Shown here: positions 27,937-59,096 of the stretch, one piece after another
How the letters are laid out: the number at the start of each line of letters is the position of its first letter
Position numbering within the stretch: the first letter of the stretch is position 1
NCBI GenBank assembly: GCA_043798915.1
Contig: JAZDOG010000089.1
Span: 33,158-97,157 of the forward strand
DNA from: Pseudomonadota bacterium
GTDB lineage: Bacteria > UBA10199 > 2-02-FULL-44-16 > JAAZCA01
Length of the DNA: 64,000 nt
Direction of reading: 5' to 3'
Notes under the pieces: model-generated
Database searches by the model: none
Told to the model about the DNA's origin: nothing
Seen by the model: only the letters and a program-made list of their open reading frames with translations
Translations under genes and position numbers: made by a program

Positions 27937-27937
27937 G

Positions 27938-41678: not shown

Positions 41679-41749
41679 GAAACGCAAGGCGAAGGGCATT
41701 GCCCAGAATCCAGAACGGTATTTTTTTGAAACCCATCAGACAAACCCAA

Positions 41750-42142
41750 TCATTCTCCTTCTATCGATGACAGCTCCATCTCCCTGCCGGCGACGACAGA
41801 GACATCGCCTGAGGAGCAGGCCGGACAATCGGGCGGGAGATAGAGGGCCGGCGCATGCGCGATGTGGTGCGCGAACTCGCAATCGTCAAACCGGCTGTCG
41901 GCAAAGCGCTTCCCGCAGGGGGCGCAGGCGAGCTCCACCGGGACTTCCTCTATATCGAAGCTCATCCCTTCGAGGGCTGGGGCCTTCTCATATGACGAAA
42001 GGCAGAACTCCAGCTGCTCCCTCTGGAAGGCGGCCATCTTCCCTATCCTGAGTTTTGCGCTCGCCACCTTCGTAAAACCGTTTTCAACCGCCTTTTCGGC
42101 TACCGTCTCGATGATCGTCTGTGCAATCGACAGTTCGTGCAT
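41750..42142 (-). CDS. hypA: [NiFe]-hydrogenase nickel-insertion / maturation factor HypA.
   Basis: MHELSIAQ... N-terminal 'MHE' Ni site and two CxxC zinc motifs (CAPCG, CPACSSG). Confidence 0.85.
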   Translation of the reverse strand: MHELSIAQTIIETVAEKAVENGFTKVASAKLRIGKMAAFQREQLEFCLSSYEKAPALEGMSFDIEEVPVELACAPCGKRFADSRFDDCEFAHHIAHAPALYLPPDCPACSSGDVSVVAGREMELSSIEGE

Positions 42143-42143
42143 A

Positions 42144-42635
42144 TCACTCCCCTTTCAACCAACCGCGCTCGTCTAACGTTTTAACAATAGACTCGGCCAT
42201 CTTCGGTATCGCCTCCGCAACCTTTGGAGTCGGGCTCTCTCCAAATGAAAATTCGTCCTTCACCTCCATCACGAATATTGCGATCTCGTTCGGGAAAGGG
42301 ACGCCCATCCTCTTCGCCAGCTCGCATGCCGTGGCGAAGTCGATCTGATGGAGCGACGAGAGGCGCGCAGAAGGCTTGAGGGCGGCCGGATCCAGCTCAT
42401 AGAAATCGCCAGGCGTCCCGCCCTTCGTGTGGATGGCATCTATTATCACGGCCCTGTCGTATCCAGAAAGGAGGTCCACGAAGTTAAAACCCCCGACAGA
42501 GGCCTCTTTGATCGAGATTCGAGACTTCGACCTCAACAGAGATTCAATATCGCGCACAACATAGATGCCGGCGCCGTCGTCGGTCAGGATGGTATTCCCG
42601 AGGCCTAGAATTATTGTTTTGGAAGGCATTCTCAA
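42144..42635 (-). CDS. Hydrogenase maturation endopeptidase (HyaD/HycI family).
   Basis: 'ILGLGNTILTDDGAGIYV' motif and 163-aa size. Overlaps mvhA by 4 nt. Confidence 0.85.
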   Translation of the reverse strand: MRMPSKTIILGLGNTILTDDGAGIYVVRDIESLLRSKSRISIKEASVGGFNFVDLLSGYDRAVIIDAIHTKGGTPGDFYELDPAALKPSARLSSLHQIDFATACELAKRMGVPFPNEIAIFVMEVKDEFSFGESPTPKVAEAIPKMAESIVKTLDERGWLKGE

Positions 42636-44092
42636 CGCGTCAACTTTTGCACTACATTGCGGTCTGAATCGTAGACCACGACCTCAAGGGGCATCTGGCC
42701 GGGGAGCGAGTGCGTGGCGCAGCCGTAGCAGGGGTCGTAGGAGCGGAACGACATCTCGACCATATTGAGGAGGGCGTCGGTCACGGGCTTTCCGGCCTTG
42801 ATCACGCCCTGCGCCGCCTTCTTGATCGACATACAGATAGGCGCATGGTTGTTCGTGGTGCCGACGATGAGATTCGCCTTCGTGACGATGCCGTTCTCGT
42901 CGGTCCAGTAGTGGTGCGTGAGCGTCCCGCGCGGGGCCTCGACGATGCCGACGCCCTCCGATGGGGTCTTCGTGGGTAGCGCGCGATAGTCGGCGCCCAT
43001 TATCCCGTCGTCCTTCACGAGCTCCACGAGCCTCTCTGCGGCATACATGAGCTCGATCACACGCGCCCAGTGCATCGCCAGGTTGTGCTTCACCGGCTTG
43101 CCGCCGAGGGTCTTGTACATCTTGTCATATTCCGCCTGCGCAAGGGGCGTCGTCATCCCGTCTGCGGCGTTCAGGCGGGCAAGCGGCGTTGCCTGATACA
43201 CGCCGGAGTCCTTGCCCGAGACAAATCCCTTACAGCCGATCTTTTTGAGATATGGGAATTTGAGGTACGTCCACGGCTCAACGTGTTCAGCAACATATTC
43301 GCGGTAATCATCCGGTGCATACTTACAATGTTCCACACCATCAGGACCGACCACGCGCACCTTGCCGTCGTAGAAATTCACCTTATTGTTCCCGTCGACG
43401 AGCCCCATATAATACGTCGGGAACGTGTATGGATCTGAGAGGATGAGGTCCACGTAGGCCTTGTTCTTTAGGACGATGTCCTCGAAGACCTTTAGCGTAA
43501 ACTTCGCAAACTCCACGCCATCCGTTGCGATCTGTGCGATCCTTGTGCGCTCCTCTTTGGAAAGCCCCTTGCTCACCCCGCCTGGCAGGGCATTGATCGG
43601 ATTTACCGGCTTGCCGCCGAGGATGGCTGCGATCTCGTGGCACTCTCTGCGCGTCTTTATCACCTTGCCGCCGACCTCGAGGCCGACCTTCTTTATCACG
43701 CCGATGATGTTTCTCTCCGCCTTGGGCGCGTCCGGACCGCAGACGAAATCAGGGCCGGCGAGCGCGTAGAAGTGCGTCGTATGATCGCCGAGGAAGAACG
43801 CGCTGTACTGTAGTTCACGGAGCTTCTTTGCGGTCTCAGGGATGTCGATGCCATATACCGCATCGCACGCCTTTGCGGAAGCCATGAGATGCGCCTCGGG
43901 GCAGACGCCGCAGATGCGCGAGGTGATGCGCGGCATCTCTTCGACCGGGCGCCCCTCCGCAAATTTTTCAAACCCGCGAAGCTCCGGCACCTGAAAGTAT
44001 GCGTTGGCGACGTCGCCCTTGTCGTCGAGGAATATTTCGATTTTTCCGTGCCCCTCAAGCCTCGTCACGGGGTCTATGGTGATGCGTTTCAT
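42632..44092 (-). CDS. mvhA: [NiFe] hydrogenase large subunit, Mvh-type (group 3c-like).
   Basis: N-terminal 'RICGVCPEAH' and C-terminal 'DPCYGCATH' Ni-Fe ligand motifs. Confidence 0.9.
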   Translation of the reverse strand: MKRITIDPVTRLEGHGKIEIFLDDKGDVANAYFQVPELRGFEKFAEGRPVEEMPRITSRICGVCPEAHLMASAKACDAVYGIDIPETAKKLRELQYSAFFLGDHTTHFYALAGPDFVCGPDAPKAERNIIGVIKKVGLEVGGKVIKTRRECHEIAAILGGKPVNPINALPGGVSKGLSKEERTRIAQIATDGVEFAKFTLKVFEDIVLKNKAYVDLILSDPYTFPTYYMGLVDGNNKVNFYDGKVRVVGPDGVEHCKYAPDDYREYVAEHVEPWTYLKFPYLKKIGCKGFVSGKDSGVYQATPLARLNAADGMTTPLAQAEYDKMYKTLGGKPVKHNLAMHWARVIELMYAAERLVELVKDDGIMGADYRALPTKTPSEGVGIVEAPRGTLTHHYWTDENGIVTKANLIVGTTNNHAPICMSIKKAAQGVIKAGKPVTDALLNMVEMSFRSYDPCYGCATHSLPGQMPLEVVVYDSDRNVVQKLTR

Positions 44093-44097
44093 ATGAA

Positions 44098-45096
44098 TTA
44101 CACCTTTGCCCTTCCCAGAACAGAATTCGTCACGCCAAACCTGTAGAACGTCCCGACCGGGTCGACAAGCCCCGCCGCGATTGCCTCGCCGCGCTTCTCG
44201 TCGCCTTTGGTGTCGATCAGAGAGCCGATCGCCGAAGCCGCCCTCGCGCCCTGATCCTCAACACCTTCTGCAGGACCGTAACAGCCGCGGCACGGCATGT
44301 TCGCCTTGAGACACTGCGCCTCGCATCCGGAGCGCGTGGCCGAGCCAACGCATACAAAACCCTGCTCCAGCAAGCACTGCGGCTTGTTCTTGAGCTCCGG
44401 CCTGGGAGTCAAGTCAGGCTTGTCCAGGTGAGGCCGCTTGAAGCGCTCGATGCGGACATCCTTCGTCTTCTTCTCGAACGGGCACTCGTCGCAGACCGAC
44501 TTGTCGCCCACGCCGACGATAGAGCCCTTCGGCGGGAGTTTTCCGGAGGCGATCGCCTCTATCACATTCCACGTCTGCTTTGCGGTCGGAGGACATCCGG
44601 GGATGAAGTAATCGGCGTCCACGACATCCTTCAGCCTCATCACCGAGCTGTAGAATTCAGGTATATGCAGCTCCCCTTCCGGCATCGTCACCTTCTCCTG
44701 CGGCAGGATGCCTTTGGGATTGTCGGTCGATTCTGTGGTCTTATACGCCCGTTCAAGGATGGAATCCTTCGTGTAGAGGTTCGCAAGTGAAGGAACCCCG
44801 CCGAAGCATGAACAGGCGCCGTATGCCGCGAGCACCTTCGATTTTTTGCGGAGGAGCTCCGCGATCTCTTTCGTCTCGCTGTTTCTCACGCCGCCGTTCC
44901 AGAGGCAGACGTCTATGTAGCCATCGGCATATTTGCGGACGTCGTCATATTTGAAGTCGGCGATGCACGGCCACATCACGATATCCGCGATATCTATCAC
45001 CTTGAGTATCTTCTCCGCTATCTCAAGCGTGGAGATATCGCATCCGCCGCAACCAGCGCCCCAATATACCCCGAGTTTTAATTTTTTATCGGCCAT
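44098..45096 (-). CDS. mvhG: [NiFe] hydrogenase small subunit, Mvh-type, with an extra C-terminal Fe-S region.
   Basis: 'WGAGCGGCDIS' proximal-cluster motif and additional Cys clusters. Confidence 0.85.
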   Translation of the reverse strand: MADKKLKLGVYWGAGCGGCDISTLEIAEKILKVIDIADIVMWPCIADFKYDDVRKYADGYIDVCLWNGGVRNSETKEIAELLRKKSKVLAAYGACSCFGGVPSLANLYTKDSILERAYKTTESTDNPKGILPQEKVTMPEGELHIPEFYSSVMRLKDVVDADYFIPGCPPTAKQTWNVIEAIASGKLPPKGSIVGVGDKSVCDECPFEKKTKDVRIERFKRPHLDKPDLTPRPELKNKPQCLLEQGFVCVGSATRSGCEAQCLKANMPCRGCYGPAEGVEDQGARAASAIGSLIDTKGDEKRGEAIAAGLVDPVGTFYRFGVTNSVLGRAKV

Positions 45097-45502
45097 CGCC
45101 TCTCCAATTGAGAGGTCCCAGCTTCCTGATCTGCTCGGTCATCTCATTTGTCACCGATGCGACGCGATCGCCCTCGGAAGCTGATATCCATTCAAGGCGA
45201 AAGCGCTCTGGCTCGATGCCGAATTGACTGAGCATCTCCTTCAGGATCGGCATCCGGCCCATCGTCTTGTGATTTCCCTCTATATAATGGCAGTCGCCAG
45301 GATGGCACCCCGCCACGAGCACGCCATCGGCCCCGTCCTTGAACGCCTTGAGGATGAAGAGCGGATCGACTCGGCCCGAGCACATAACACGGACGATGCG
45401 CATGTTCGGCGCGTACTTTATGCGCGCGATGCCGGCAAGGTCAGCGCCGGTGTATGAGCACCAGTTGCAGAAAATGCCGAGTATTTTGGGTTCAAAAGAC
45501 AT
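45086..45502 (-). CDS. mvhD: MvhD-like [2Fe-2S] electron-transfer subunit (methyl-viologen-reducing hydrogenase delta subunit).
   Basis: Start moved to MSFEPKILG. Motifs 'FCNWCSY', 'MCSGRVDP' and 'AGCHPGDCHY' are diagnostic. Confidence 0.85.
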   Translation of the reverse strand: MSFEPKILGIFCNWCSYTGADLAGIARIKYAPNMRIVRVMCSGRVDPLFILKAFKDGADGVLVAGCHPGDCHYIEGNHKTMGRMPILKEMLSQFGIEPERFRLEWISASEGDRVASVTNEMTEQIRKLGPLNWRGDGR

Positions 45503-45516
45503 TTCAGCACTCCGCT

Positions 45517-47304
45517 CTATGCCAACACCCCTTCTATCTCCGCAAGCACCTGCGAATTCTTGAAGTTTTGCGCCGCTATGACGCCGCACGGACATGCCGC
45601 GACGCACGTGCCGCACCCCTTGCAGAGCGCCTCGTTCACGCGCGAGACCTTCTTATCTTCAATGTAATCTATCGCGTGGTACGGACACATGTCATTGCAT
45701 ATCCTGCAACCTGTGCAATGATCTTCGTCGATGAGTGCAGTGGCCGCGTCTATCTCGATCTTACCCTTTGCCGCGAGCATCATCGCCTGTGCCGCGGCGC
45801 CCGATGCCTGCGCGACCGTGTCCGGGATGTCCTTGGGGCCCTGGCAGCAACCGGCGATGAAGATTCCGTCGGTCGCCGTGGAGACCGGCGCAAGCTTCGG
45901 ATGCTTCTCCGCGAAGAAGCCGTCCTTGCTCTGGCAGAGAGTGAGAAGTCTGGCCACCTCCGGCGCGTCCTTCCCCGCCTCGATGGCCGAGCACAGGACG
46001 ACCATATCCACCGGCACGCGGCGTATCCGGCGCAAAAGCGTATCCTCGCACGTAACGACGAGCTTGCCCTCCTCCTCCGGATAGAGCGCAAAATCGCTGA
46101 CCGAGGCCGCCTTGCCGCGAATAAAGCGCACATCCTCCTCAAGCAGGCGATTGTAAAACTCTTCATATCCCTTGCCGAATGAGCGCATGTCGATATAAAA
46201 AGCGTATACCTCCGCGCCTGTTTTTTCCTTCACGAGGTGCGCAAACTTCAGCGCGTACATGCAGCAGACGCGCGAACAATATTCATGATAGTTTTTGTCC
46301 CGGCTTCCTATGCAATGAATTATGCCGATCGATTTTGGCTCGGAACCGTCGGCAAGGACGATCTTGCCATTGGTGGAACCGGCGGCACAGTTCATCCTCT
46401 CAAACTCAAGGCTTGTTATGACATTGTCGAACCGCCCGTAGCCATACTGCATTGTCTTGCGCGGATCAAAGAGTTGAAAACCGGTGGCGGCGATTATGGA
46501 CCCGACCTCCACCTCCCGGGTTGTGTCCTTCATCTCGTGATCGATAGCCTCGGTGGGACATATTTTCGCGCAGATCTTGCACTTCCCGTTTCTGAAGTAG
46601 ATGCACGACTGCGTGTCGATGACCGGCTTGTTGGGGACAGCCTGCATCGTGGGCACATAGATCGCGGTGTTAGGGCCAAGGGTGATGTCGCCGTGCACGA
46701 TCTTGTCTTCCATCGTCCCCGTCACACGGATATGGCCCGTAGGGCAGACCTTCGCGCAGGAGCCGCACCCGATGCACCTGTCGGAATCCACTTCAAAAGG
46801 CGTAGTGACGCTTCGCTCGATCCCCCGTCCCGCGAACGCGATGGCCTTGGCGCCGACCACCTCATTGCAGACACGGACGCAAAGGCCGCAGAGAATGCAC
46901 CCCTCTTCGCCTTTGCCGAAACGAGATTCATCAATGCCGAGTTCAGAAGCGAGCTCGCGCAGCACTTTTACCTTTGAACAGCGCGCAAGGAAAAACTCCA
47001 CCAGGAGCTTTCGAATGGACCTTATCCGCTCGTTGTATGTGACAACCTCAAGCCCTTCCTCGACGGGATAATTGCAGGCGGTCACATAACGGACCCGTTT
47101 CCCGCGACGGACCTCAACGGTGCATATCCGGCATGCCGCATAAGGCTGCACGTGTCTGTAGTAGCAAAGGGTCGGGATCTTTATCCCCAGTTTCTCCGCC
47201 GCGGCGAGTATGTACGAACCCTTCGCGACCTCAACCTCCCTGCCGTCGACGACGAGTTTGACCGTTTCCACAGGAGCTTTTGTCTTCACATTATCGTTCG
47301 CCAT
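45517..47304 (-). CDS. Fusion protein: NuoG/FdhA-like N-terminal Fe-S module ([2Fe-2S] ferredoxin, His-ligated cluster, 2x[4Fe-4S]) joined to the C-terminal half of HdrA (second ferredoxin cluster, second half of the FAD domain, C-terminal ferredoxin domain).
   Basis: Start at MANDNVKTKA. N-terminus 'CYYRHVQPYAACRICTVEV' with CILCGLC / CIGCGSC. The HdrA part begins 'DTQSCIYFRNGKCKICAKICP' and contains 'CSRVCCMYALK', 'GIFIAGCCQGPKDI', and terminal 'CTGCRIC..CP..CKGCGTCVAACP'. Confidence 0.75.
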   Translation of the reverse strand: MANDNVKTKAPVETVKLVVDGREVEVAKGSYILAAAEKLGIKIPTLCYYRHVQPYAACRICTVEVRRGKRVRYVTACNYPVEEGLEVVTYNERIRSIRKLLVEFFLARCSKVKVLRELASELGIDESRFGKGEEGCILCGLCVRVCNEVVGAKAIAFAGRGIERSVTTPFEVDSDRCIGCGSCAKVCPTGHIRVTGTMEDKIVHGDITLGPNTAIYVPTMQAVPNKPVIDTQSCIYFRNGKCKICAKICPTEAIDHEMKDTTREVEVGSIIAATGFQLFDPRKTMQYGYGRFDNVITSLEFERMNCAAGSTNGKIVLADGSEPKSIGIIHCIGSRDKNYHEYCSRVCCMYALKFAHLVKEKTGAEVYAFYIDMRSFGKGYEEFYNRLLEEDVRFIRGKAASVSDFALYPEEEGKLVVTCEDTLLRRIRRVPVDMVVLCSAIEAGKDAPEVARLLTLCQSKDGFFAEKHPKLAPVSTATDGIFIAGCCQGPKDIPDTVAQASGAAAQAMMLAAKGKIEIDAATALIDEDHCTGCRICNDMCPYHAIDYIEDKKVSRVNEALCKGCGTCVAACPCGVIAAQNFKNSQVLAEIEGVLA

Positions 47305-47312
47305 AGATCCAT

Positions 47313-49295
47313 TCACTCGATGATGACAGCCCCGAACCTGCACACTTCCTGACACGAACCGCATTTGATACAGCGGGGGCCATCAATTATATGAGGTTTC
47401 TGTTTTTTACCGCTGATACAGTTCTCAGGGCAGGACCTCACGCACAGCGTGCATCCCGTGCACTTCACCTTGTCTATCGAATAACGCACGAGCGCCTTGC
47501 AGACGCCGGCAGGACAGCGCTTGTTGAATATGTGCTCCTCATATTCGGACCTGAAATAACGAATGGTGGACAGGACCGGATTGGGTGCCGATCCACCCAG
47601 GGCGCAAAGCGACGCATCCTGAAGGACCTGCGCGATCTCGACCAGGGTGTCTATGTCGTCCGCCCTTCCCCCGCCCGCAACGATGCGGTCGAGTATCGCC
47701 AGCATGTTGCGTATGCCTTCGCGGCACGGCGCGCATTTTCCGCACGACTCATCCTTGAGGAAGTTCAGGAAATAGCGGCCGATGTCGACCATGCACGAAG
47801 TGTCATCCATGATGATCATGCCGCCCGAACCCATCATGGACCCGGCCTCTGTCAGGGTGTCAAAATCGACGGGCAGGTCGATCAGGCTCTCGGGAACGTA
47901 GTTCACCGATGGCGGGGCTGTATCGCCCAGATAATCGCGGTGTTTCCATCCGAACGTGTCCACGATGAGGCAGCCGCCCGAGGGGCCCCCGGTCTGTACC
48001 GCTTTGAAGCGGCGTCCTTCGGGAATGCCTTCGCCGAGCTCATAGAGTATTTCGCGAAGCGTGATCCCCATCGGGACCTCCAGCAGACCGGTATTCTTCA
48101 CCTTGCCGACCAGCGAGAACACCTTGGTCCCTTTGGAGCCCTCGGTCCCGATGGACGAAAACCACTCCGCCCCCCGCGCCATGATGGGGGGGATGTTCGC
48201 CCACGTTTCAACATTGTTGAGGTTCGTGGGCCTTCCCCACAGACCCGTCTCTGCGGTATGCACATACTTTGCGCGCGGCTCGCCGACCTCGCCCTCTATT
48301 GAAGCCATGAGCGCCGTGGACTCGCCGCACACGAACGCCCCACCGCCACGATTGATCTTCATGTCAAAATCAAACCCGCTGCCGAATACATCTTTGCCCA
48401 GGATCCCGTATTCGCGCGCCTTATCAATCGCCTGCGTGAATTTGCGAACCGCCTGCGGGTATTCGTGACGCACGTATATGTAGCCCTGATTCGACCCTAT
48501 GGCATAGGCGCCGATGATCATTCCCTCGATGATGGCATGCGGATCCCCTTCGAGGACGCTGCGGTCCATATATGCCCCTGGATCCCCTTCATCGGCGTTG
48601 CATATGACATACTTCACGTCTCCGGGGGCATTCTTCACTGTTTCCCATTTTCGGCCGGCCGGGAAGCCGCCGCCACCGCGGCCGCGAAGGCCCGACTTTT
48701 TCACGGCCTCGACCAGCGAATCCGGACTTTTGCGTTCGGACAATATCCTGAAGAGCGTGAAGTAACCCCCCATCGCGATGTATTGGTCTATATCATCCGG
48801 ATCGATGAAGCCGCAGTGTCTCAGGACGATCTTGAACTGCTTTGAATAGAACGGAACATCGCTCAACAGGCGTATCCCGGATATTTCCGGAGGGAGCTTG
48901 CCCGAAGAATAGCTGAACACGGATTCATCCAGGAGATTTGTCTCATTCAAAATCTTTCCAAGGGCCCATTCCGGTTTGTGCGCGCCCCCGGCAAGGGATG
49001 CAACGAGTTCGCGCGCTTTGGCAGGCGTCATTTCACTGTAGAATATCCGAGGGAAACCCGGCATCCAGACGTCGAGGATAGGTTCTTCCTGACAGAAACC
49101 TATGCAACCGGCCTCGGCAACTATCGCGTCCAGCTTCCGCTTCTCCACTTCTTCCCTCACGGCCTTCAAGACCTCGCCCGAACCTGTCGCCAGACCGCAC
49201 GTGGCCGTTCCGACCGTGATCTTGATCCTCCCGGGATGGAGCTTCGCCTCTCCCCGTTTTTTTATCTCCTGAAAGTCCCGCAAAGTTCTGATCAT
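47313..49295 (-). CDS. NuoF-like NADH-binding flavoprotein subunit (HydB/HndC-type). N-terminal thioredoxin-like [2Fe-2S] domain, FMN/NADH site, [4Fe-4S], and a C-terminal 2x[4Fe-4S] ferredoxin.
   Basis: Start at MIRTLRDF; its ATG overlaps the nuoE stop (ATGA). Motifs 'GRGGGGFPAG', 'ESCGKCAPCREG' and two CxxCxxCxxxCP. Confidence 0.85.
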   Translation of the reverse strand: MIRTLRDFQEIKKRGEAKLHPGRIKITVGTATCGLATGSGEVLKAVREEVEKRKLDAIVAEAGCIGFCQEEPILDVWMPGFPRIFYSEMTPAKARELVASLAGGAHKPEWALGKILNETNLLDESVFSYSSGKLPPEISGIRLLSDVPFYSKQFKIVLRHCGFIDPDDIDQYIAMGGYFTLFRILSERKSPDSLVEAVKKSGLRGRGGGGFPAGRKWETVKNAPGDVKYVICNADEGDPGAYMDRSVLEGDPHAIIEGMIIGAYAIGSNQGYIYVRHEYPQAVRKFTQAIDKAREYGILGKDVFGSGFDFDMKINRGGGAFVCGESTALMASIEGEVGEPRAKYVHTAETGLWGRPTNLNNVETWANIPPIMARGAEWFSSIGTEGSKGTKVFSLVGKVKNTGLLEVPMGITLREILYELGEGIPEGRRFKAVQTGGPSGGCLIVDTFGWKHRDYLGDTAPPSVNYVPESLIDLPVDFDTLTEAGSMMGSGGMIIMDDTSCMVDIGRYFLNFLKDESCGKCAPCREGIRNMLAILDRIVAGGGRADDIDTLVEIAQVLQDASLCALGGSAPNPVLSTIRYFRSEYEEHIFNKRCPAGVCKALVRYSIDKVKCTGCTLCVRSCPENCISGKKQKPHIIDGPRCIKCGSCQEVCRFGAVIIE

Positions 49296-49771
49296 AACGC
49301 CTTTTCCTTCGCCGCAGTTGTCTTCTGCGGCCGGACAAGCCTCACAGCCTTGTCCTGATTGAGCCTGCCATGGACGTTCTCGTCCACGATGACGATGGGT
49401 GCCAGGCTGCAGGCTCCGACACAGCGCACGGTCTTCAAAGTATATTTGCCATCCAGGGTTGTTCCGCCCTCTTTTATGTGCAGTTCCCTCTCCATCCTGC
49501 TCACGATCCTGTCTGCGCCTTTGACATGACAGGCCGTGCCGCAACAGACATGGACCATATGCTCGCCCTGCGGAGTCAGGCTGAAAGCCTTATAAAAGGT
49601 CGCAACCGCATAAATCTGTGTCAACGGAATATCCATTTTGTCCGCCAGATAGCGGAGGGCCTCCTGAGGCAGGTGTCTGTAGGTATCCTGAATATCTTGC
49701 ATCATCATTATGAGCGATTCCCGATCCGCGTTGTATTTGTCAATAATCGCCGCCGTTTTTTCCTGTATCAT
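49292..49771 (-). CDS. NuoE-like [2Fe-2S] thioredoxin-fold subunit (24-kDa / HoxE family).
   Basis: 'CCGTACHVKGA...CVGACSLAP' cluster motif; 159 aa. Confidence 0.85.
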   Translation of the reverse strand: MIQEKTAAIIDKYNADRESLIMMMQDIQDTYRHLPQEALRYLADKMDIPLTQIYAVATFYKAFSLTPQGEHMVHVCCGTACHVKGADRIVSRMERELHIKEGGTTLDGKYTLKTVRCVGACSLAPIVIVDENVHGRLNQDKAVRLVRPQKTTAAKEKAL

Positions 49772-49784
49772 AATCGCGTCCTTG

Positions 49785-50612
49785 TCAGTCCCAATGCCTT
49801 ACCAGGTGGTCTCCGATCCTTATCAATCTCTTTACCGGGATGCGTCTCGCAGGACACGCATTCCAGCAATCGCCGCAACCTGTGCACTTCCCCTCATCCA
49901 CATAACGGCTCTTCTTCCTGACTGTGACCTTGAAGTTTCCCACGAATCCGTCGACTTTTTCAACCTCGCTATAGGACATGAGCTCTATGTTCTGATGCTG
50001 CCCCACCTGCACCATCTTAGGGGTCAATATGCACGCCGCGCAATCGAGCGTGGGGAAGGTCTTGTCGAACTGCGCCATATGTCCGCCGATGGAGGGTTCC
50101 TTTTCGACCAGATAGACCTTCCGGCCGCTGTCGGCGATGTCCAGCGCGGCCTGTATGCCGGCGATGCCTCCTCCTATAACCATCACGTGCGGATGGACGG
50201 GAACTTCCTTCGCCTGCAACGGCTCAAGCAAAGAGGCCCTTGCAACTGCGCCGTTGATCAGCGCCTTGGCCTTCTCGGTAGCGAACACGGAGTCATCGGT
50301 CACCCATGAACAGTGTTCCCGAACATTCGCCATATGAAACAGGTATTGGTTGAGACCGGCCGTCTGGCATGCCTTGCGAAAGGTCTTTTCATGCATCAGC
50401 GGAGAGCAGGATGCGACCACGACCCGGTCGATCTTGAGCTTCTCAATATCTTCCTTGATCAGGTTCTGGCCTGGCTCCGAACACATGAACTTGTATTCAC
50501 GCACAACGGCCACATTTGGCAATGATCGCGCATAATCGCAGACCTCGTCGATCGCGACCTTCCCCGCGATGTTCGTGCCACAGTGACATATGTAGACGCC
50601 TATCTTGGGCAT
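49785..50612 (-). CDS. hdrA: N-terminal portion of HdrA (heterodisulfide reductase subunit A): N-terminal Cys domain, first half of the FAD-binding domain, and the first [4Fe-4S] motif of the inserted ferredoxin. The ORF ends there.
   Basis: '[15 protein letters not shown]', FAD motif '[30 protein letters not shown]', terminal '[12 protein letters not shown]'. Ends with an in-frame stop 13 nt before nuoE. Confidence 0.75.
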
Positions 50613-50625
50613 GGCACCTGTCCGT

Positions 50626-51513
50626 TCATTTCATATATTTTGCCAGCACGTCGTTCGCCGACACTATCTCCTGACCTATCCCGAGGTCGGCGGGGCTCAA
50701 CCCCAACGCCAGGCCTATGAGCTGGGTGAAGTAGAGTATCGGTATATCGAACTTCATCTTATATTTTTTGGCCGCACGCTGCTGATAAGCATCTATGTTG
50801 AGCTGACACAGAGGACACGGCGTGACAAGTATCTGGGCGCCGCTTCGGATCGCGCTATGCAACAGGTTCTTTATCAGCCTGAGTCCTATCCATTCCTCCG
50901 TCCCCATGAGTGCGCCCCCGCAACAGTTTGCCTTCATGGCAAAATCGACCGGGGTCGCACCGCAGACCCTCATCAAACCCTCCATCGTTTCCGGACATTC
51001 CGGATCGTCTATCTCATTTTTGGGCCTTACCACCTGACACCCGTAATAACAGCCGACCTTCAGACCCTCAAGGGGTCTGACAACGAATTGTCTCACTTTT
51101 TCGGGCCCGATATCGTGGGCAAAGACGTCCAGCAGGTGGCGGACCTTGACAGTGCCCTTGTAGCTGAGGCCTCCCTCCGACAAGGCCGCATTGACCTTCT
51201 GACGCACCTGCGGGAACTCCTTCAGGTAGTTGTTCGTCTTGTTGAGTCCCACATAACATCCGCTGCAAGGTGCGACGATCTCTCCACTTTTTTGTTCCGC
51301 AAGCGCCAGATTCCTGGCCGAGATGGCGAAGGCAGTGAGCTCCTTGATGCCCATGTATGCGGTGGCGCCGCAGCAATTCCAGTCCTCAAGTTCCACGAGC
51401 TTTGCGCCAAGTGCGGCGGAAACCACGCGCGAAGACGCATCATAAGCTTTCGACGAGGAATGCAGCGAACAGCCGGGATAATAGAGATATTCTTTCCAGT
51501 AGGTCTCAGCCAT
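50626..51513 (-). CDS. hdrB: Heterodisulfide reductase subunit B (two CCG domains).
   Basis: CCG motifs 'CCGATAY'...'CSGCY' and 'CCGGAL'...'CPLCQ'. Confidence 0.85.
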
Positions 51514-51524
51514 TAAATCACCCT

Positions 51525-52097
51525 TTAAGACATCGATTCCGCTTTCATCACTATCGCACGAAATTGTTTGCGACCTTTTATCTTATGCGCTGTCAGCGGG
51601 AGTCTCCCTTTAAGCCAAAGTCTGAGCCCGATCGTCATGTTCTTGAGGAGCGCGAACGGGTTCGTCTTCAAAAAGAAACGGAGCAAAAGCTCCATTTCGT
51701 TATTGCGGCCATATCGATTGACCACCTTCATAAAGGATTTCGCCAGATGGAATCCGCGCCATTGCAGGGAAAACCGCTCCTTGCTTGAAAGGCGTTTGAG
51801 CGCATACATGATATCGGTGACCTTGATGTTTTTCGGACAGCGGACATAACAGAAATAACAGGAGGTACAGAGCCAGATATCCGGGCTTTTGAGGACCTCC
51901 TCGCGAAGACCCGCGCGGATTTTATAGAACAGGTTGCGCGGGCTGTCCTCCATGAGATATGAGGTGGGACAGGAACCGGAGCAGGTGCCGCATTGAATGC
52001 AATCGACGATCTTCTCTCCGCCCGGGATAGCGCGCACCTCTTCCAGAAAACTCAGATCCATCTCGCTTTCGCGCTGTATGTCGCGCTTCTCGGCCAT
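51525..52097 (-). CDS. hdrC: Heterodisulfide reductase subunit C (2x[4Fe-4S]).
   Basis: 'CIQCGTCSGSCP' and 'CTSCYFCYVRCP'. Confidence 0.8.
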   Translation of the reverse strand: MAEKRDIQRESEMDLSFLEEVRAIPGGEKIVDCIQCGTCSGSCPTSYLMEDSPRNLFYKIRAGLREEVLKSPDIWLCTSCYFCYVRCPKNIKVTDIMYALKRLSSKERFSLQWRGFHLAKSFMKVVNRYGRNNEMELLLRFFLKTNPFALLKNMTIGLRLWLKGRLPLTAHKIKGRKQFRAIVMKAESMS

Positions 52098-52215
52098 CCC
52101 GCCCTCCGCCGATAAATCAGTTCATCTTGGAAGGCGTGGGCTAACACAATAAACCTCCTTCGTCAAATCGCTCACACAGATTTCACACTTACATTTTTTA
52201 CAGGGAAGGCAGCGC

Positions 52216-53586
52216 CTACATCAGTCCCAGTTCCTTCATCTTGCCATAGAGCGTCGTGCGGCCCAAATCGAGACTCCTCGCGGCCTTGCTTTTGTCGCCG
52301 TTGCATATCCGCAGGGCGTGCTCGATATACTGCCGCTCGGCACGGGCGACGTAGTCCTTGAGGGCGCCGACCGTCGCATCGGCCGTGGGGAGGCCCACCG
52401 GCGCGGCCGCGCCGGTCCTGCAGCCGTTGAGCGCCCATGACGGGAAGATCGATTCGTCGATACGGTCGCCAGGCGCCAGGATGGACAAGCTCTGGACGAT
52501 GTTCGCCAGCTCCCTCACATTCCCCGGCCAATGATAGGCCATGAGCCGCCCCATGGCCGCGGGTGTGAAGCTCTTCACCGCGCCATCCTTCGCAAACCGC
52601 GCGAGGAAATGATCGATGAGCGGCGGGATGTCCTCCACGCGCTCGCGCAGCGGAGGCATCGAGAACTGTATGACGCGCAGCCGGTGGTAGAGGTCCATGC
52701 GGAATTCGCCGCGGCTGACCTTCTCCTCGAGCAATTCATTGGTCGCCGCAATCACGCGGAAGTCGGCCTTGATGAGTTCGTTGCCGCCCACGCGGCAGAA
52801 CTCTCGCTCCTGCAATACACGCAGGATCTTCGCCTGCATGTCGGCCTTGAGGGCGCCCACCTCGTCCAAGAAAATGTCGCCTCCGTCGGCGAGCTCAAAC
52901 TTGCCGAGCCTGCGCTTTATGGCGCCGGTGTAGGCGCCAGCCTCGGCGCCGAAGAGCTCCGCCTCGATCAGGTTGTCGGGGATGGCCGCGCAGTTGACTG
53001 CGATGAAAGGTCTGCGGGCATCGCCCTCGATGCGGTGTATGTGGCGGGCCAGGAGTTCCTTGCCGGTGCCGGTCTCCCCGACGATCAGGACGTTTGCCCC
53101 GTGGCCTTTGAGCTGCTCCGTCTGGGAGAGGATGCCGCTCACCGCGGCGCTCCTGTGTATTATGCCGGGACAGCAACTTCCGGTGTTTTGGGCCTCGACG
53201 AGGGCGTCGTACCGCTCGCGCACGCGGCGCGCAGCCGCCTGCCTCTCGGCTATCGCCTGAAGCTCCTCCATGTCGAAGGGCTTGGTGAGATAATCGATCG
53301 CACCGGCGCGTATGGCCTCGACCACCGTCTTCGGATCGCGTTGGCCAGACAGGATGACGATGTCCACGGCGGGGTCGACGGATTTTATTCGGCGTATGCC
53401 CTCTATTCCATTCTCCCTGCCAAGCCCAATATCCAGAAGGACCATATCGATCGAACCGCCCCGCATCAGCGACAATCCCTCCTCTATGGACGGCGCGGTG
53501 GAGACGGCAAATATCCCGTGAAGCTGCATGCGCATGCCGATGAGAAAATCTGGATCGTCGTCGATGCAAAGAACTTTATACGTCAT
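52216..53586 (-). CDS. Sigma-54-dependent response regulator (NtrC family); no adjacent kinase.
   Basis: Start moved to MTYKVLCIDDD (GGAGGA RBS 4 nt upstream). Receiver 'MVLLDIGLG...YLTKP'; 'GETGTGKE'; 'GAYTGA'; C-terminal HTH. Confidence 0.85.
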   Translation of the reverse strand: MTYKVLCIDDDPDFLIGMRMQLHGIFAVSTAPSIEEGLSLMRGGSIDMVLLDIGLGRENGIEGIRRIKSVDPAVDIVILSGQRDPKTVVEAIRAGAIDYLTKPFDMEELQAIAERQAAARRVRERYDALVEAQNTGSCCPGIIHRSAAVSGILSQTEQLKGHGANVLIVGETGTGKELLARHIHRIEGDARRPFIAVNCAAIPDNLIEAELFGAEAGAYTGAIKRRLGKFELADGGDIFLDEVGALKADMQAKILRVLQEREFCRVGGNELIKADFRVIAATNELLEEKVSRGEFRMDLYHRLRVIQFSMPPLRERVEDIPPLIDHFLARFAKDGAVKSFTPAAMGRLMAYHWPGNVRELANIVQSLSILAPGDRIDESIFPSWALNGCRTGAAAPVGLPTADATVGALKDYVARAERQYIEHALRICNGDKSKAARSLDLGRTTLYGKMKELGLM

Positions 53587-53615
53587 AAGTTCCTCCATGT
53601 TTTCATCCTTATCTT

Positions 53616-53631
53616 AGCAATTTTCGTGCCA
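53616..53631 (-). promoter_or_regulatory. Consensus sigma-54 promoter TGGCAC-gaaaa-TTGCT on the minus strand, about 30 nt upstream of the regulator start codon.
   Basis: Reverse complement of 53616-53631 is TGGCACGAAAATTGCT, an exact TGGCAC-N5-TTGCW match. Correct spacing to the GGAGGA RBS and ATG at 53586. A TGTTC-N8-GAACA inverted repeat at 53749-53766 is a possible activator site. Confidence 0.55.
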
Positions 53632-53818
53632 ACCCCACAGTTGTCGTTATGAACCGCGTATTCCTTGAAAAAATCATTCCTGCTGATAAACAATCAAATA
53701 AAAAATCCGGAATTCAGAACACCCCTGATGTTCCAATTCTCGGATTATGTTCAGTTGTCCGAACAACCAGCATGCTCGGAATTAAGCACACGCGGCTCGC
53801 ACAAACAAGAATAATCCT

Positions 53819-53838
53819 GGTTAAAATTGGTTAAAATT
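53819..53838. repeat. Tandem direct repeat GGTTAAAATT x2 in the divergent promoter region between the sigma-54 regulator and the DUF4912 gene.
   Basis: Seen directly in the sequence; possible regulator-binding site. Confidence 0.4.
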
Positions 53839-53947
53839 CGTCGATTGCTTTTCCGGAAGGCCTGTTATATACGGGTTATTGGAAAAGTAATTTATATCAA
53901 GTGGTTTAATCCGCAACGTCCCAAAGGCCGACAAAAAGGGGGACCAG

Positions 53948-54871
53948 ATGCCCAGAGCCAGCGGAATAAAGAAAAAGGGTGCGATGGCACGAAAAAAATC
54001 GACCTCCAGACCCAAGGCCCCTGTGAAGAAACGCAAGACCGCCGCAAAACGCCCCGCAATAAAGAAAGCCAAACCGCAAACAAAAAAAATCTCTACGAGG
54101 AAGGCGCGGCCCCAAAAAGCGCGGCAGGTCGGGGCACGCAATATCGCGGGGGTCGATCTAGGATTCGAAAAAATAGTCGCACACATCTCGCGTGGCCAGA
54201 CGGATGAGGGCAGTATCGAGAAAACGAAATTCGACATCGGCGTCGCGCACAACGCGCAGGCTATGGCGGTCCATGATATCCCCTCGCACTACGGCAAGGA
54301 CCACGCCTCCATTCTCGTCGTCGACCCCAGGTTCGTCTTCACCTACTGGGAGGTGAGGCAGAAATCGATGCTGGAGGCGGCCAAGAGGCTCGGCTCAGAG
54401 GCAAAGCTCACTCTGCGCTTCTACGACATCACCCGCACGCACGCGCCGGAGGACGCGCCGTCCTGGGACGTCGAAGTCTTCGACAGGCTCGGAAACTGGT
54501 ATCTGAAGCTCGAGTATCCGGAGCAGATCCTCTGCCTCGATGTCGGCATGAGGAGCGCTTCGGGCGCGTTCCACTGCATCGCAAGATCGAACTTCCTGCG
54601 CATGCCGCCGGCCTCGCTCGCCCGCCCGGGACCCATCAAGTGGATGGTGGTGACGCCCGCCGGCGACAGGCTCATAAGCGACGTTGAGGAGTACACGGAC
54701 GCGGACCTCTCGCTCCTCAAGAAGATACTGGGCCCGTACTTCTTCGATCTGCTCATGCGCGGACGATTCGCCTCGATCGCCGGATCGAGCCTCGAGGCGA
54801 TCTTCTACGACGTCCAGGCGCTGCGCGTCGGGGAGTCCCCAGCCGGACGCCCGCCGTGGATAAAATCGTGA
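53948..54871 (+). CDS. DUF4912-like protein with a highly basic Lys/Ala/Pro-rich histone-H1-like N-terminal tail; co-occurs with GH57 enzymes.
   Basis: Tail 'KKKGAMARKKSTSRPKAPVKKRKTAAKRPAIKKAKPQTKK'. Overlaps the GH57 gene start by 16 nt (translational coupling). Confidence 0.55.
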   Translation: MPRASGIKKKGAMARKKSTSRPKAPVKKRKTAAKRPAIKKAKPQTKKISTRKARPQKARQVGARNIAGVDLGFEKIVAHISRGQTDEGSIEKTKFDIGVAHNAQAMAVHDIPSHYGKDHASILVVDPRFVFTYWEVRQKSMLEAAKRLGSEAKLTLRFYDITRTHAPEDAPSWDVEVFDRLGNWYLKLEYPEQILCLDVGMRSASGAFHCIARSNFLRMPPASLARPGPIKWMVVTPAGDRLISDVEEYTDADLSLLKKILGPYFFDLLMRGRFASIAGSSLEAIFYDVQALRVGESPAGRPPWIKS

Positions 54872-56448
54872 CCAAAGGGTATCTATCGCTGGTTCTGCAT
54901 GCTCACCTGCCGTACGTGAGGCACCCTGAGCACGAGGAGTTCCTCGAGGAACAGTGGTTCTTCGAGGGGATGACGGAGACCTACATCCCGCTCCTCACCG
55001 TGTTCGAAGGGCTCGTGCGCGACGGCATCGACTTCAGGATCACGATATCGCTCACCCCTCCCCTCATCTCCATGATGACCGACGGCCTGCTTCAGGACCG
55101 CTATTCCAGGCATCTGCAGAGGCAGCTCGAACTCGCAGGAAAGGAACTCGACCGCACGCGGCACAACGAGGCCTTCCGACCGACCGCCGAGATGTACCAC
55201 GGCAAGCTCTCCCACGCCCGCTGGCTCTTCGAGGAACGCTGGGGGAGAAACCTCGTCGCCGGCTTCCGTCACTTCCAGGACATGGGGAAGCTCGAGATAA
55301 TCACCTGCGGCGCTACCCACGGCTTTTTGCCGCTTCTGCGCGTATCCCACGAAGCGGTGCGCGCGCAAGTTTCCGTCGCATGCGACCTGCACGAGCGGCA
55401 CCTCGGGCGCCGGCCCCGCGGCATATGGCTGCCGGAGTGCGGCTACTACCCGGGCCTGGACGAAATACTGTGGGACCACGGGATCAGATTCTTCTTCGTC
55501 GACTCGCACGGCATCCTCCACGCCGAATCGCGCCCCAAGTACGGCGTCTATGCGCCGCTCTATTGCCCGTCGGGCGCCGCTGCGTTCGGGCGCGACTACG
55601 AGTCGTCTAAACAGGTATGGAGCGCAAAGGAGGGCTACCCGGGCGATTTCGTCTACAGGGATTTCTATCGCGACATCGGCTTCGACCTTCCGCTCGACTA
55701 CATCCGGCACTACATTCACCCGGACGGCATCAGGATCATGACCGGCTTCAAATATCACCGCATCACCGGAGTCACGGACCACAAGGAACCCTACAATCCT
55801 TCGCACGCAGCCGAGACAGCTGCATCACACGCCGGAAACTTCATGTTCAACAGGCAGCGCCAGTGTGAATATCTCCACGATGTGATAGGAAAGCCGCCGA
55901 TCATCGTGGCGCCCTATGACGCGGAGCTCTTCGGCCACTGGTGGTATGAGGGCGTGGACTGGATCAATTATCTCTTCAGAAAGATTGGCTGCGACCAGGA
56001 CACGGTGAAGCTTGCAACGCCGTGGGAGTATCTCTGCTGGCATCCCAAGAACCAGCTGGCCCGCCCCTCGGAATCGAGCTGGGGCAACAAGGGCTATGCC
56101 GAGGTGTGGTGCAACGGGACCAACGACTGGATCTACCGGCACCTGCACGAAGGGGCGTTCCGGATGACGGAGCTGGCGCGCGCGCATCCCTCGCCCGACG
56201 GCAACTTGAAGCGCGCGCTGAACCAGATGGCGAGGGAGCTCCTGCTCGCGCAGTCGTCCGACTGGGCCTTCATCATGAACAGCGGAACGATGGTGGAATA
56301 CGCGGTCAAGCGCACGAAGGAGCACATCTGGCGCTTGACGAAGCTCTATGAGGACATCAAGGGCTGCCGCCTCGACATGAACTTCGTGGGCGAACTGGAG
56401 TGGAAGGACAACATATTCCCGGACATCGACTACAGGACATATGTGTGA
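54856..56448 (+). CDS. Glycoside hydrolase family 57 enzyme (alpha-glucan branching/amylase type).
   Basis: GH57 N-terminal signature 'GYLSLVLHAHLPYVRHPE' with catalytic-region conservation ('WLPECGY', 'FFFVDSHG'). Confidence 0.85.
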   Translation: MDKIVTKGYLSLVLHAHLPYVRHPEHEEFLEEQWFFEGMTETYIPLLTVFEGLVRDGIDFRITISLTPPLISMMTDGLLQDRYSRHLQRQLELAGKELDRTRHNEAFRPTAEMYHGKLSHARWLFEERWGRNLVAGFRHFQDMGKLEIITCGATHGFLPLLRVSHEAVRAQVSVACDLHERHLGRRPRGIWLPECGYYPGLDEILWDHGIRFFFVDSHGILHAESRPKYGVYAPLYCPSGAAAFGRDYESSKQVWSAKEGYPGDFVYRDFYRDIGFDLPLDYIRHYIHPDGIRIMTGFKYHRITGVTDHKEPYNPSHAAETAASHAGNFMFNRQRQCEYLHDVIGKPPIIVAPYDAELFGHWWYEGVDWINYLFRKIGCDQDTVKLATPWEYLCWHPKNQLARPSESSWGNKGYAEVWCNGTNDWIYRHLHEGAFRMTELARAHPSPDGNLKRALNQMARELLLAQSSDWAFIMNSGTMVEYAVKRTKEHIWRLTKLYEDIKGCRLDMNFVGELEWKDNIFPDIDYRTYV

Positions 56449-58422: not shown

Positions 58423-59054
58423 TCAGTGGGAAGGCGCAGCGGTCGGCGCCTTCTTGGTAGATTTTCCTCCCTGAACTCCGTTTCCGACAGCGTCCCCGAG
58501 TTTGCTGATATAGTCCAATGCCTCACCCAGCGTTTCGCAGGTCTGTTCAATTTTCGTGATTTCCTTATTCACGTCCTTGCCCTTGAATCCCTTGGCTTCC
58601 AGGGTCATTCTGATCTGATCTTTCCCATTCTGTTTGCCCGCGGTGTCGGGCAGACCATCAAGGCCATAAAGGGCGTCAACAGTGAGCGGCTTCTGGCCGT
58701 GCAGGTGAAGGAACGCATTGACGCGACCCATGACCCTGGCAAAATCCGCGTCACTCGGCGGCGTTATGCCTTGTGGCTTGAGCTTCCATTGAGCCAAATA
58801 ATATTTTGCTATGCTCTTTCTCATTTTTTCCGGTGTCGGCTGAAAAACCGTCGTGACAATCTTCCATTCCTTTGCGTCCGACTTGTCCAGCACAATGGCG
58901 ATATATTGCCGCTGACCGTTGATGGCAGACGGAGCAATATCAGACGGAGGAGCGTCAGACGGAGCGCCATGGTGGATATCGAGCGGCGTGGAGGCGATAA
59001 GCTCCTTTTGCCCCTGACCGCCTATTTTATTGGTGTCTCCAGCCCCGAACATAC
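58423..59054 (-). CDS. Hypothetical 210-aa protein (no signal peptide, no recognised domain) expressed from a sigma-54 promoter. Gene is AT-richer than its flanks.
   Basis: ATG (MFGAGDTNK...) immediately follows the poly-G tract. The listed TTG start at 59100 lies inside the promoter element and is rejected. Confidence 0.5.
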
Positions 59055-59067
59055 CCCCCCCCCCCCG
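59055..59067. repeat. Homopolymeric tract, 13 x C on the plus strand (G13 on the coding strand), sitting between the sigma-54 promoter/TSS and the ATG of the downstream gene.
   Basis: Counted directly: 59055-59067 are all C. It is the longest homopolymer in the window. Confidence 0.9.
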
Positions 59068-59096
59068 AATAAACTCCTGATCGGTAGTATTTGATC

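What the first reader, a model, noticed from the sequence alone, without database searches (positions are those of the whole stretch)
53586..53766. The regulator in front of the hdr-nuo-mvh operon is itself sigma-54-promoted
An exact TGGCAC-N5-TTGCT element (reverse complement of 53616-53631) sits at the right distance upstream of the GGAGGA RBS and ATG of the NtrC-family regulator (52216-53586). That gene lies 118 nt upstream of hdrC. A TGTTC-N8-GAACA inverted repeat about 120 nt further upstream (53749-53766) and a GGTTAAAATT tandem repeat (53819-53838) are candidate enhancer or activator sites. This suggests the bifurcating hydrogenase/Hdr complex is under sigma-54 control with positive autoregulation, and the receiver is an orphan with no adjacent kinase.
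Basis: seen in the sequence. Interest (0 to 1): 0.5.

Follow-up and report, generated by a model that had tools for sequence, protein, structure and literature searches.

The report
Self-activating sigma-54 regulator beside hydrogenase genes
The sigma-54 promoter and its upstream palindromes in front of this response-regulator gene are real and conserved wherever the gene occurs, but they belong to the regulator's own probable self-activating circuit, and the neighbouring hydrogenase/Hdr genes are a lineage-specific insertion with their own ordinary promoter.

Summary
Observation confirmed. TGGCACGAAAATTGCT lies at 53631-53616 (- strand), 45 nt before the ATG (53586) of a REC/AAA+/HTH_8 enhancer-binding protein. 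There are 2 exact matches in the window against 0.04 expected.

Eleven loci encoding this regulator (the window plus ten related loci, 58-100% identity) all carry a -24/-12 element upstream of the gene. Ten of the eleven have a GAACR-N5-7-YGTTY palindrome about 100 bp further upstream. The GGTTAAAATT tandem repeat is not conserved.

The link to hdr-nuo-mvh is not supported:
- In relatives the regulator is followed by RNase R, pyrR or other genes. In the window RNase R lies about 12 kb further on, so the hdr-to-hypA block is an insertion.
- The 118-nt gap has no GG-N10-GC element.
- The gap carries a TTGACG-N17-TAG sigma-70-type box shared with close hdr clusters that sit elsewhere without this regulator.

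No histidine kinase is adjacent, so the orphan call holds.

Best reading: a positively autoregulated orphan NtrC-family activator, a known kind of circuit in a new family. Read-through into hdr cannot be excluded.

The parts
53616..53631 (-). Sigma-54 (-24/-12) promoter TGGCACGAAAATTGCT. GG is at 53630-53629 and GC at 53618-53617. The inferred transcription start is near 53605.
   Evidence: Exact consensus match. A -24/-12 element is conserved upstream of the regulator gene in all 10 related loci. The transcription start is inferred from the usual spacing and is not measured.
53591..53596 (-). Shine-Dalgarno GGAGGA, 4 nt before the ATG at 53586.
   Evidence: Read directly from the sequence.
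52216..53586 (-). NtrC-family enhancer-binding response regulator (456 aa): REC with D52 and K102, AAA+ domain with GAYTGA, C-terminal HTH_8.
   Evidence: Pfam, alignment. Scores fall below every NCBIfam equivalog cutoff.
53717..53733 (.). Enhancer site B, palindrome GAACA-N7-TGTTC. It starts 102 nt upstream of the TGG of the -24 box.
   Evidence: The same type of site lies at -87 to -113 in 10 of 11 loci. Background frequency is 0.008 per 300 nt in 1.38 Mb of unrelated loci.
53748..53765 (.). Its centre is 32 bp from the centre of site B.
   Evidence: Present in 7 of 11 loci. Background frequency is 0.005 per 300 nt.
53704..53721 (-). Degenerate third element, TGTTC-N8-GGATT, sharing the TGTTC of site B.
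   Evidence: A G[GA]A[AT]T element 8 nt after the TGTTC recurs in the window, L001, L002, L003, L084 and L085. This is my reading of the sequences and was not tested statistically.
53818..53837 (.). Tandem TGGTTAAAAT x2. It lies just upstream of a possible -35 box (TTGCTT) for the divergent DUF4912 gene. I do not count it as part of the sigma-54 module.
   Evidence: Present but absent from 6 related intergenic regions.
52138..52166 (-). Sigma-70-type promoter candidate of the hdr cluster: TTGACG (52166-52161), 17-nt spacer, TGt-TAGCCC (-10 box at 52143-52138).
   Evidence: A TTGAC[GT] box lies 37-88 nt before the hdrC ATG in all 10 homologous clusters with at least 63% HdrC identity, against 5 of 66 more distant ones. 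Spacing is fixed at N17/18 followed by TA.
41750..52097 (-). hdrC, hdrB, short hdrA-like gene, nuoE, nuoF, Fe-S protein, mvhD, NiFe small and large subunits, hycI, hypA. This block is inserted relative to relatives, together with the + strand TPR gene at 40392-41678.
   Evidence: Pfam. Synteny comparison.
53948..54871 (+). Divergent DUF4912 gene, the conserved neighbour of the regulator, followed here by a GH57 branching enzyme (54856-56448).
   Evidence: Pfam. DUF4912 is divergent from the regulator in the window, L001, L002, L084, L167, L168 and L169. It is 57% identical to the L084 protein. No -24/-12 element faces it.

Best explanation
The 53587-53947 intergenic region holds a self-contained sigma-54 control module for the regulator gene.

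Inferred mechanism:
1. RNA polymerase carrying sigma-54 binds the -24/-12 element at 53631-53616 and forms a closed complex.
2. The gene's own product binds the TGTTC/GAACA palindromes centred about 95 and 126 bp upstream of the -24 box, through its conserved HTH_8 domain. The product is an orphan NtrC-type response regulator with an intact phospho-acceptor Asp and a GAYTGA loop.
3. Once phosphorylated by a kinase encoded elsewhere, it oligomerises, loops across the AT-rich spacer and uses ATP to open the promoter.
4. Transcription starts near 53605. The result is positive autoregulation.

What is shown: the sequence elements, their positions, and their conservation across genomic contexts. 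What is inferred: binding, phosphorylation, looping and the start site.

The hdr-nuo-mvh cluster is a roughly 12-kb insertion next to this module. It most likely fires mainly from its own sigma-70-type promoter in the 118-nt gap. At most it receives some read-through from the regulator's promoter.
For: - The promoter is exact and rare: 2 matches against 0.04 expected.
- All 11 loci (58-100% identity) have TGG[CT]A[CT]-N5-TTGCT upstream of the gene. It lies 42-55 nt from the ATG in 9 of them.
- In about 170 kb from these loci, the regulators' own promoters are the only high-scoring -24/-12 elements with these palindromes upstream.
- Site B lies at -87 to -113 in 10 of 11 loci and site A occurs in 7 of 11. 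Background is 0.005-0.008 per 300 nt.
- The module follows the gene into at least five different downstream contexts: hdr, RNase R, pyrR, nitroreductase, TauE and a methyltransferase with a hybrid kinase.
- The recognition-helix region GRTTLYxKMKxLG is conserved within the family and differs in the three paralogues in the window.
- D52, K102, the Walker motifs and GAYTGA are present. GAYTGA is an accepted working variant (PMC6615313).
- hdr independence rests.
Against: - There are no expression or binding data.
- rpoN is not in the window. Its presence is implied only by four activator genes and three good -24/-12 elements.
- A different activator could bind the palindromes.
- L086 has only a one-mismatch version of the site, and its promoter lies 328 nt upstream with a small ORF in between.
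- L002 and L168 use TGTTT half-sites and shorter spacers.
- No terminator is predicted between the regulator and hdrC, so co-transcription is possible.
- The proposed hdr -10 box (TAGCCC) is weak by the E. coli consensus.
- No consensus IHF site lies in the spacer.
Confidence: 0.62

Rival explanations
1. The regulator is the dedicated sigma-54-dependent activator of the hdr-nuo-mvh operon. Regulator and operon form one sigma-54 transcription unit, or the operon has a second sigma-54 promoter, giving autoregulated control of the bifurcating hydrogenase.
For: The genes share a strand and lie 118 nt apart. No intrinsic terminator is predicted in the gap. Sigma-54/two-component control of Hdr-like clusters does occur in a distant lineage: a Cache-HAMP kinase and an activator lie divergent from hdrC, with TGGCAG-N5-GTGCW upstream.
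Against: No related regulator locus (0 of 9) has hdr downstream. The cluster is an insertion into a conserved backbone. No GG-N10-GC element lies in 52060-52260. Close hdr clusters lack this regulator and any -24/-12 element, but share the TTGACG-N17-TA box found in the window's gap. Terminators are not predicted after the regulator in relatives either, so their absence here says little.
Confidence: 0.2
2. The promoter is real, but a different enhancer-binding protein binds the TGTTC/GAACA sites. The gene would then sit in a regulatory cascade rather than in an autoregulatory loop.
For: The genome is rich in such activators, with three more in this window. Cascades of these activators are known in Myxococcus (from my own knowledge). 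No binding data exist.
Against: The sites stay with the gene in unrelated genomic contexts, including L170, where every neighbour differs. The family's HTH is conserved along with the motif. No second conserved activator gene accompanies the locus.
Confidence: 0.15
3. The -24/-12 match and the palindromes are chance sequences in an AT-rich intergenic region, and the gene is transcribed from an unrecognised sigma-70 promoter.
For: Consensus matches alone do not prove function. The simple scan is not tuned to this organism.
Against: The elements are conserved in sequence and position in 11 of 11 loci at protein identities down to 58%, where intergenic DNA is otherwise not alignable. No sigma-70-like site was found on the - strand of the region.
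Confidence: 0.03

Closest known systems
E. coli glnAp2/NtrC (glnA-ntrBC) positive autoregulation
   Same: Both have a REC-AAA+-HTH_8 activator whose gene is transcribed from a -24/-12 promoter. The promoter is activated from two palindromic sites about 100-140 bp upstream. In the window the two site centres are 32 bp apart, at about -120 and -152 from the inferred start. The glnAp2 sites at -108 and -140 have the same separation (from my own knowledge).
   Different: The regulator scores below the NtrC equivalog cutoff (381 against 558.6 bits). Its half-site is TGTTC rather than TGCACC. There is no adjacent ntrB-like kinase and no glnA. The promoter lies directly before the regulator gene.
Autoregulated NtrC-like activators of Myxococcus and other deltaproteobacteria (for example the nla28 and mrpAB operons; from my own knowledge)
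   Same: These genomes carry many such activators, several of which have sigma-54 promoters and their own binding sites upstream. The regulator's homologues come from MAGs labelled Deltaproteobacteria.
   Different: Those operons usually include the cognate kinase. The binding motifs differ, and no orthology was shown.
Sigma-54/NtrC-type control of hydrogenases (FhlA-hyc in E. coli, HoxA/HupR)
   Different: The FhlA score is far below its cutoff (260 against 830 bits). No -24/-12 element precedes the hydrogenase/Hdr genes, and the adjacency is not conserved.
TGT-N(x)-ACA enhancer sites of other activators (NifA TGT-N10-ACA, GlrR TGTC-N10-GACA, CbrB TGTTAC-N14-GTAACA; from my own knowledge)
   Same: Dyad sites with outer TGT...ACA, placed about 100 bp upstream of the -24 box.
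   Different: Here the dyad is TGTTC-N8-GAACA (TGT-N12-ACA), combined with the inverse dyad GAACA-N5-7-TGTTC, and the two often share a half-site. No paper in the library links TGTTC to a sigma-54 enhancer.

Membership tests
Sigma-54 (-24/-12) promoter | GG and GC dinucleotides separated by 10 nt within a TGGCAC-N5-TTGCW context | tested here: met
   12 of 12 specified consensus positions match at 53631-53616.
Sigma-54 (-24/-12) promoter | Intergenic, oriented toward a gene, at a workable distance from the gene | tested here: met
   45 nt from the TGG to the ATG, with the Shine-Dalgarno in between. The distance is 42-55 nt in 9 of 11 loci.
Sigma-54 (-24/-12) promoter | Conserved in related loci | tested here: met
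   11 of 11 loci.
Sigma-54 (-24/-12) promoter | The genome encodes RpoN, and transcription starts about 12 nt after the GC and depends on RpoN | not testable with these tools
   I found no rpoN among the ORFs scanned in the window. Indirect support only: four activator genes and three good -24/-12 elements.
NtrC-family response regulator / bacterial enhancer-binding protein | REC domain with phospho-acceptor Asp, AAA+ sigma-54 interaction domain with a GAFTGA-type loop, C-terminal HTH_8 | tested here: met
   Pfam E-values are 6.6e-24, 1.6e-62 and 1.7e-11. D52, K102, GETGTGKE and GAYTGA are present. GAYTGA is an accepted variant.
Named equivalogs (NtrC, AtoC, PrsR, ZraR, FhlA) | Score above the NCBIfam curated cutoff | tested here: not met
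   Scores against cutoffs: 381 vs 559, 362 vs 714, 342 vs 503, 332 vs 760 and 260 vs 830. This is an unnamed subfamily.
Enhancer (upstream activating sequence) of an enhancer-binding protein | Dyad-symmetric sites about 80-150 bp upstream of the -24 box, conserved with the promoter | tested here: met
   Site B starts 102 nt and site A 134 nt upstream of the TGG. They occur in 10 of 11 and 7 of 11 loci, against a background of 0.005-0.008 per 300 nt.
Enhancer (upstream activating sequence) of an enhancer-binding protein | Bound by the activator and required for activation | not testable with these tools
   Needs EMSA, footprinting or reporter mutagenesis.
Positive autoregulatory loop | The sites are recognised by the product of the downstream gene itself | tested here: inconclusive
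   The motif stays with the gene across unrelated contexts, and the HTH is conserved. No test separates this from a cascade.
Sigma-54-controlled hydrogenase/Hdr operon | A -24/-12 element upstream of the first structural gene, or conserved linkage to the activator | tested here: not met
   No GG-N10-GC element in 52060-52260. None of 24 close hdrC homologues has one within 400 nt. Linkage is absent when viewed from either gene.
Orphan response regulator | No histidine kinase gene in the same operon or adjacent | tested here: met
   Neighbours are hdrC and DUF4912/GH57. The nearest kinases are at least 23 kb away. No kinase is adjacent in L001, L002, L003, L084, L086, L167 or L168. L170 has a hybrid kinase three genes downstream, after a methyltransferase and a periplasmic binding protein, and L169 has one 4 kb upstream.

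The most novel reading that the evidence does not exclude
An uncharacterised, widely conserved orphan activator family keeps a portable self-activating sigma-54 module, often paired divergently with a DUF4912 gene and a large TPR Ser/Thr kinase. The module has a tripartite TGTTC-N8-GAACA-N5-7-TGTTC enhancer about 100 bp upstream. In this one genome a 12-kb Hdr/NuoEF/Mvh hydrogenase island landed immediately downstream of the module. With no terminator in the gap, the island could be partly captured by read-through. That would be a natural case of a metabolic island acquiring sigma-54/two-component control on top of its own promoter.
Probability: 0.2. Interest if true: 0.45.

Novelty: new member of a known kind. 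Interest (0 to 1): 0.3.

Why it matters
The result corrects a tempting annotation-by-adjacency: the hydrogenase/Hdr complex should not be assigned to the sigma-54 regulon on this evidence. It also gives a testable binding motif and promoter architecture for an unstudied family of orphan NtrC-type regulators from uncultured deltaproteobacteria-like bacteria. That motif can be used to find the family's real regulon in complete genomes. The circuit itself, a sigma-54 activator that activates its own gene, is textbook.

Tried and rejected
It was useless for comparing related loci.
- I searched for a second sigma-54 promoter in the regulator-hdrC gap and for one facing DUF4912. Neither exists, even at a 6/12 or 7/12 threshold.
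- I looked for the same palindromes upstream of the other -24/-12 elements in the window (15052, 59096, 30499) and elsewhere in the related loci. None were found, so no regulon member beyond the regulator gene could be identified.
- I looked for a consensus IHF site between enhancer and promoter. None occurs within one mismatch in the window; the spacer only has AT-rich tracts.
- No intrinsic terminator follows the regulator, but none is predicted in relatives either, so this is uninformative.
- The tandem repeat is not conserved as an activator site.
- Literature searches for TGTTC with sigma-54 and for DUF4912 gave nothing relevant.
- The 209-aa ORF behind the 59096 promoter is not homologous to the 211-aa gene near ClpB in L001.
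- The Rfam scan found no RNA family in the intergenic region.

Full report
**1. The observation**

- On the - strand the sequence reads ...GGGGTTGGCACGAAAATTGCTAAGATAAGGATGAAAACATGGAGGAACTTATGACG.
- TGGCAC-N5-TTGCT occupies 53631-53616, GGAGGA occupies 53596-53591, and the ATG is at 53586.
- The exact pattern TGGCACNNNNNTTGCW occurs twice in the 64-kb window, against 0.04 expected from shuffles.
- The second exact match (15052-15067, + strand) and a one-mismatch match (59096-59111, - strand) are also intergenic and point at ORFs. The organism therefore clearly uses this promoter class.
- The downstream gene (52216-53586) encodes Response_reg + Sigma54_activat + AAA_lid_14 + HTH_8.
- The tandem repeat is TGGTTAAAAT x2 at 53818-53837.

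**2. Gene context**

- Downstream on the - strand lie an HdrC-like protein, HdrB (CCG domains), a short HdrA-like protein, NuoE, NuoF, a 2Fe-2S/4Fe-4S protein, MvhD, the NiFe small and large subunits, HycI and HypA.
- Upstream and divergent lie a DUF4912 gene (53948-54871) and a GH57 branching enzyme.
- No histidine kinase is adjacent. The window's kinases are at 27938-29113 and 4582-7086. The first of these heads an operon with three more tandem activators at 23611-27936.

**3. Related loci**

- The regulator has a graded series of homologues. I fetched ten loci at 58-75% identity.
- All ten have a -24/-12 element upstream of the gene: TGGCAC-N5-TTGCT in nine and TGGTAT-N5-TTGCT in L168. It lies 42-55 nt from the ATG in nine of the eleven loci (the window included), 104 nt in L170, and 328 nt in L086, where a small ORF intervenes.
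- About 100 bp upstream of the -24 box, ten of eleven loci have GAACR-N5-7-YGTTY, starting at -87 to -113 from the TGG. Seven have YGTTY-N8-GAACR.
- In L003, L084, L167 and L170 the two dyads share the central half-site, giving TGTTC-N8-GAACA-N6/7-TGTTC.
- In 1.38 Mb of unrelated fetched loci these patterns occur 0.005-0.008 times per 300 nt.
- Across about 170 kb of the related loci, the regulators' own promoters are the only strong -24/-12 elements with such sites upstream.
The tandem repeat is found in none of six related intergenic regions.

**4. The hdr link fails from both directions**

From the regulator's side:
- The downstream gene is RNase R in L001, L084 and L085. In L167 and L168 a small ORF precedes RNase R.
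- It is pyrR-pyrB-pyrC in L002, a nitroreductase in L086, a convergent TauE gene in L169, and a methyltransferase followed by a binding protein and a hybrid kinase in L170.
- It is never hdr.
- The window retains the relatives' backbone: DUF4912, regulator, then RNase R (38193-40226, 71% identical to the L084 protein), a 6S RNA, 5-FTHF cyclo-ligase, RNase Y and YmdB.
- The hdr-to-hypA block plus a TPR gene (about 40.4-52.1 kb) is therefore an insertion of about 12 kb.

From the hdr side:
- Eighty loci with HdrC homologues were fetched.
- The ten closest (63-91% identity) have no homologue of the regulator upstream. In L087 and L089 carA/carB are divergent from hdrC, and in L092 a kinase plus a receiver protein are.
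- None of the 24 loci at 52% identity or more has a -24/-12 element within 400 nt.
- All ten of the closest, and the window, have TTGAC[GT] 37-88 nt before the hdrC ATG, followed by N17/18 and TA, often with a TGn extended -10. Only 5 of 66 more distant loci have any such box.
- In the window this candidate sigma-70 promoter is at 52166-52138.
- The 118-nt gap contains no GG-N10-GC element at any threshold.

Co-transcription:
- No terminator is predicted in the gap, so read-through is possible.
- None is predicted after the regulator in relatives either, so this carries little weight.

**5. A useful contrast**

- A distant group of hdrCBA-like clusters (46-51% HdrC identity, for example L136) sits divergent from a Cache-HAMP histidine kinase and an activator that is 33-35% identical to this regulator.
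- These clusters carry a recurrent TGGCAG-N5-GTGCW element upstream of hdrC.
It exists elsewhere, but not in this window.

**6. The protein**

- The receiver has D9/D10, D52, S80 and K102. The AAA+ domain has GETGTGKE and a GAYTGA loop. The HTH region GDKSKAARxLxxGRTTLYxKMKxLG is conserved in the family and differs in the three paralogues in the window.
- GAYTGA is reported as a functional variant (PMC6615313).
- The protein falls below every NCBIfam equivalog cutoff, including NtrC, AtoC, PrsR, ZraR and FhlA. It is an unnamed NtrC-family subfamily.

**7. Mechanism**

- Shown: the elements, their geometry and their conservation.
- Inferred: the regulator binds the TGTTC/GAACA dyads, centred at about -120 and -152 from the inferred start and 32 bp (three helical turns) apart. 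When phosphorylated by a kinase encoded elsewhere it oligomerises, loops over the AT-rich spacer, which has no consensus IHF site, and opens the sigma-54 closed complex.
- The outcome is positive feedback on its own gene. A cascade through another activator is the main alternative.
- The real regulon is unknown, because no other promoter in the available sequence carries the motif.

**8. Verdict**

- The autoregulation and orphan parts of the interpretation are plausible and well supported by phylogenetic footprinting.
- The claim about the hydrogenase/Hdr complex is not supported.
- The circuit is a new member of a well-known kind, of modest interest. Its main value is a defined motif for an unstudied regulator family and a caution against inferring regulation from adjacency.

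Noticed in passing
window 37519-37737 (-): A 6S RNA (Rfam RF00013, 97 bits) lies between RNase R and the 5-formyl-THF cyclo-ligase gene. This is the classic ssrS-ygfA arrangement.
   Followed up: no
window 15052-15328 (+): A second exact sigma-54 promoter, TGGCACGCATTTTGCT, lies about 40 nt before a 73-aa ORF (15107-15328) that matches no family. The ORF is wedged between two - strand genes, one of which is polA.
   Followed up: partly
window 58423-59111 (-): A -24/-12 element, TGGCACGTCTATTGCG (59096-59111), precedes a 209-aa ORF with no family match. A run of 13 G (about 59054-59066) lies immediately before its ATG and could be a slippage-prone tract.
   Followed up: partly
window 23611-29113 (-): A PAS histidine kinase is followed by three tandem REC/sigma-54 activator paralogues, two of which have a detectable HTH_8. 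An anti-sigma-type HATPase_c_2 protein and a GAF-SpoIIE phosphatase lie downstream.
   Followed up: no
window 59372-59463, upstream of clpB (ATG 59480, +): Three GC-rich hairpins (CCCTCCCC...GGGGAGGG, and GGGGTAGATC...GATCTACCCC) are packed into the roughly 110 nt before the clpB start. They could be a repeat element or a leader structure.
   Followed up: no
L136 738-5000, and L111, L112, L125, L130, L149, L152, L154, L163: Distant hdrCBA-like clusters lie divergent from a Cache-HAMP kinase plus an activator and carry a recurrent TGGCAG-N5-GTGCW element, about 350 nt upstream of hdrC in L136 and four others and 95-297 nt upstream in the rest. This looks like genuine sigma-54/two-component control of Hdr-like genes in another lineage.
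   Followed up: partly
window 52138-52166 (-), and L087-L096: A TTGAC[GT]-N17/18-TA promoter-like box, often with a TGn extended -10, is conserved in front of hdrC across close homologous clusters, regardless of their genomic location.
   Followed up: yes
window 40392-52100: The hdr-nuo-mvh-hycI-hypA block plus a TPR gene is an insertion of about 12 kb into a backbone (regulator, RNase R, ZapA, 6S RNA, 5-FTHF ligase, RNase Y, YmdB) that is otherwise conserved in relatives. Some close hdr clusters (L089, L093) lack the NuoE/NuoF genes, so the module composition varies.
   Followed up: partly
L001, L086, L167, L168, L169: A roughly 1,100-aa Ser/Thr protein kinase with TPR repeats lies next to DUF4912 or the regulator in five related loci. 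In the window a GH57 branching enzyme takes that position.
   Followed up: no
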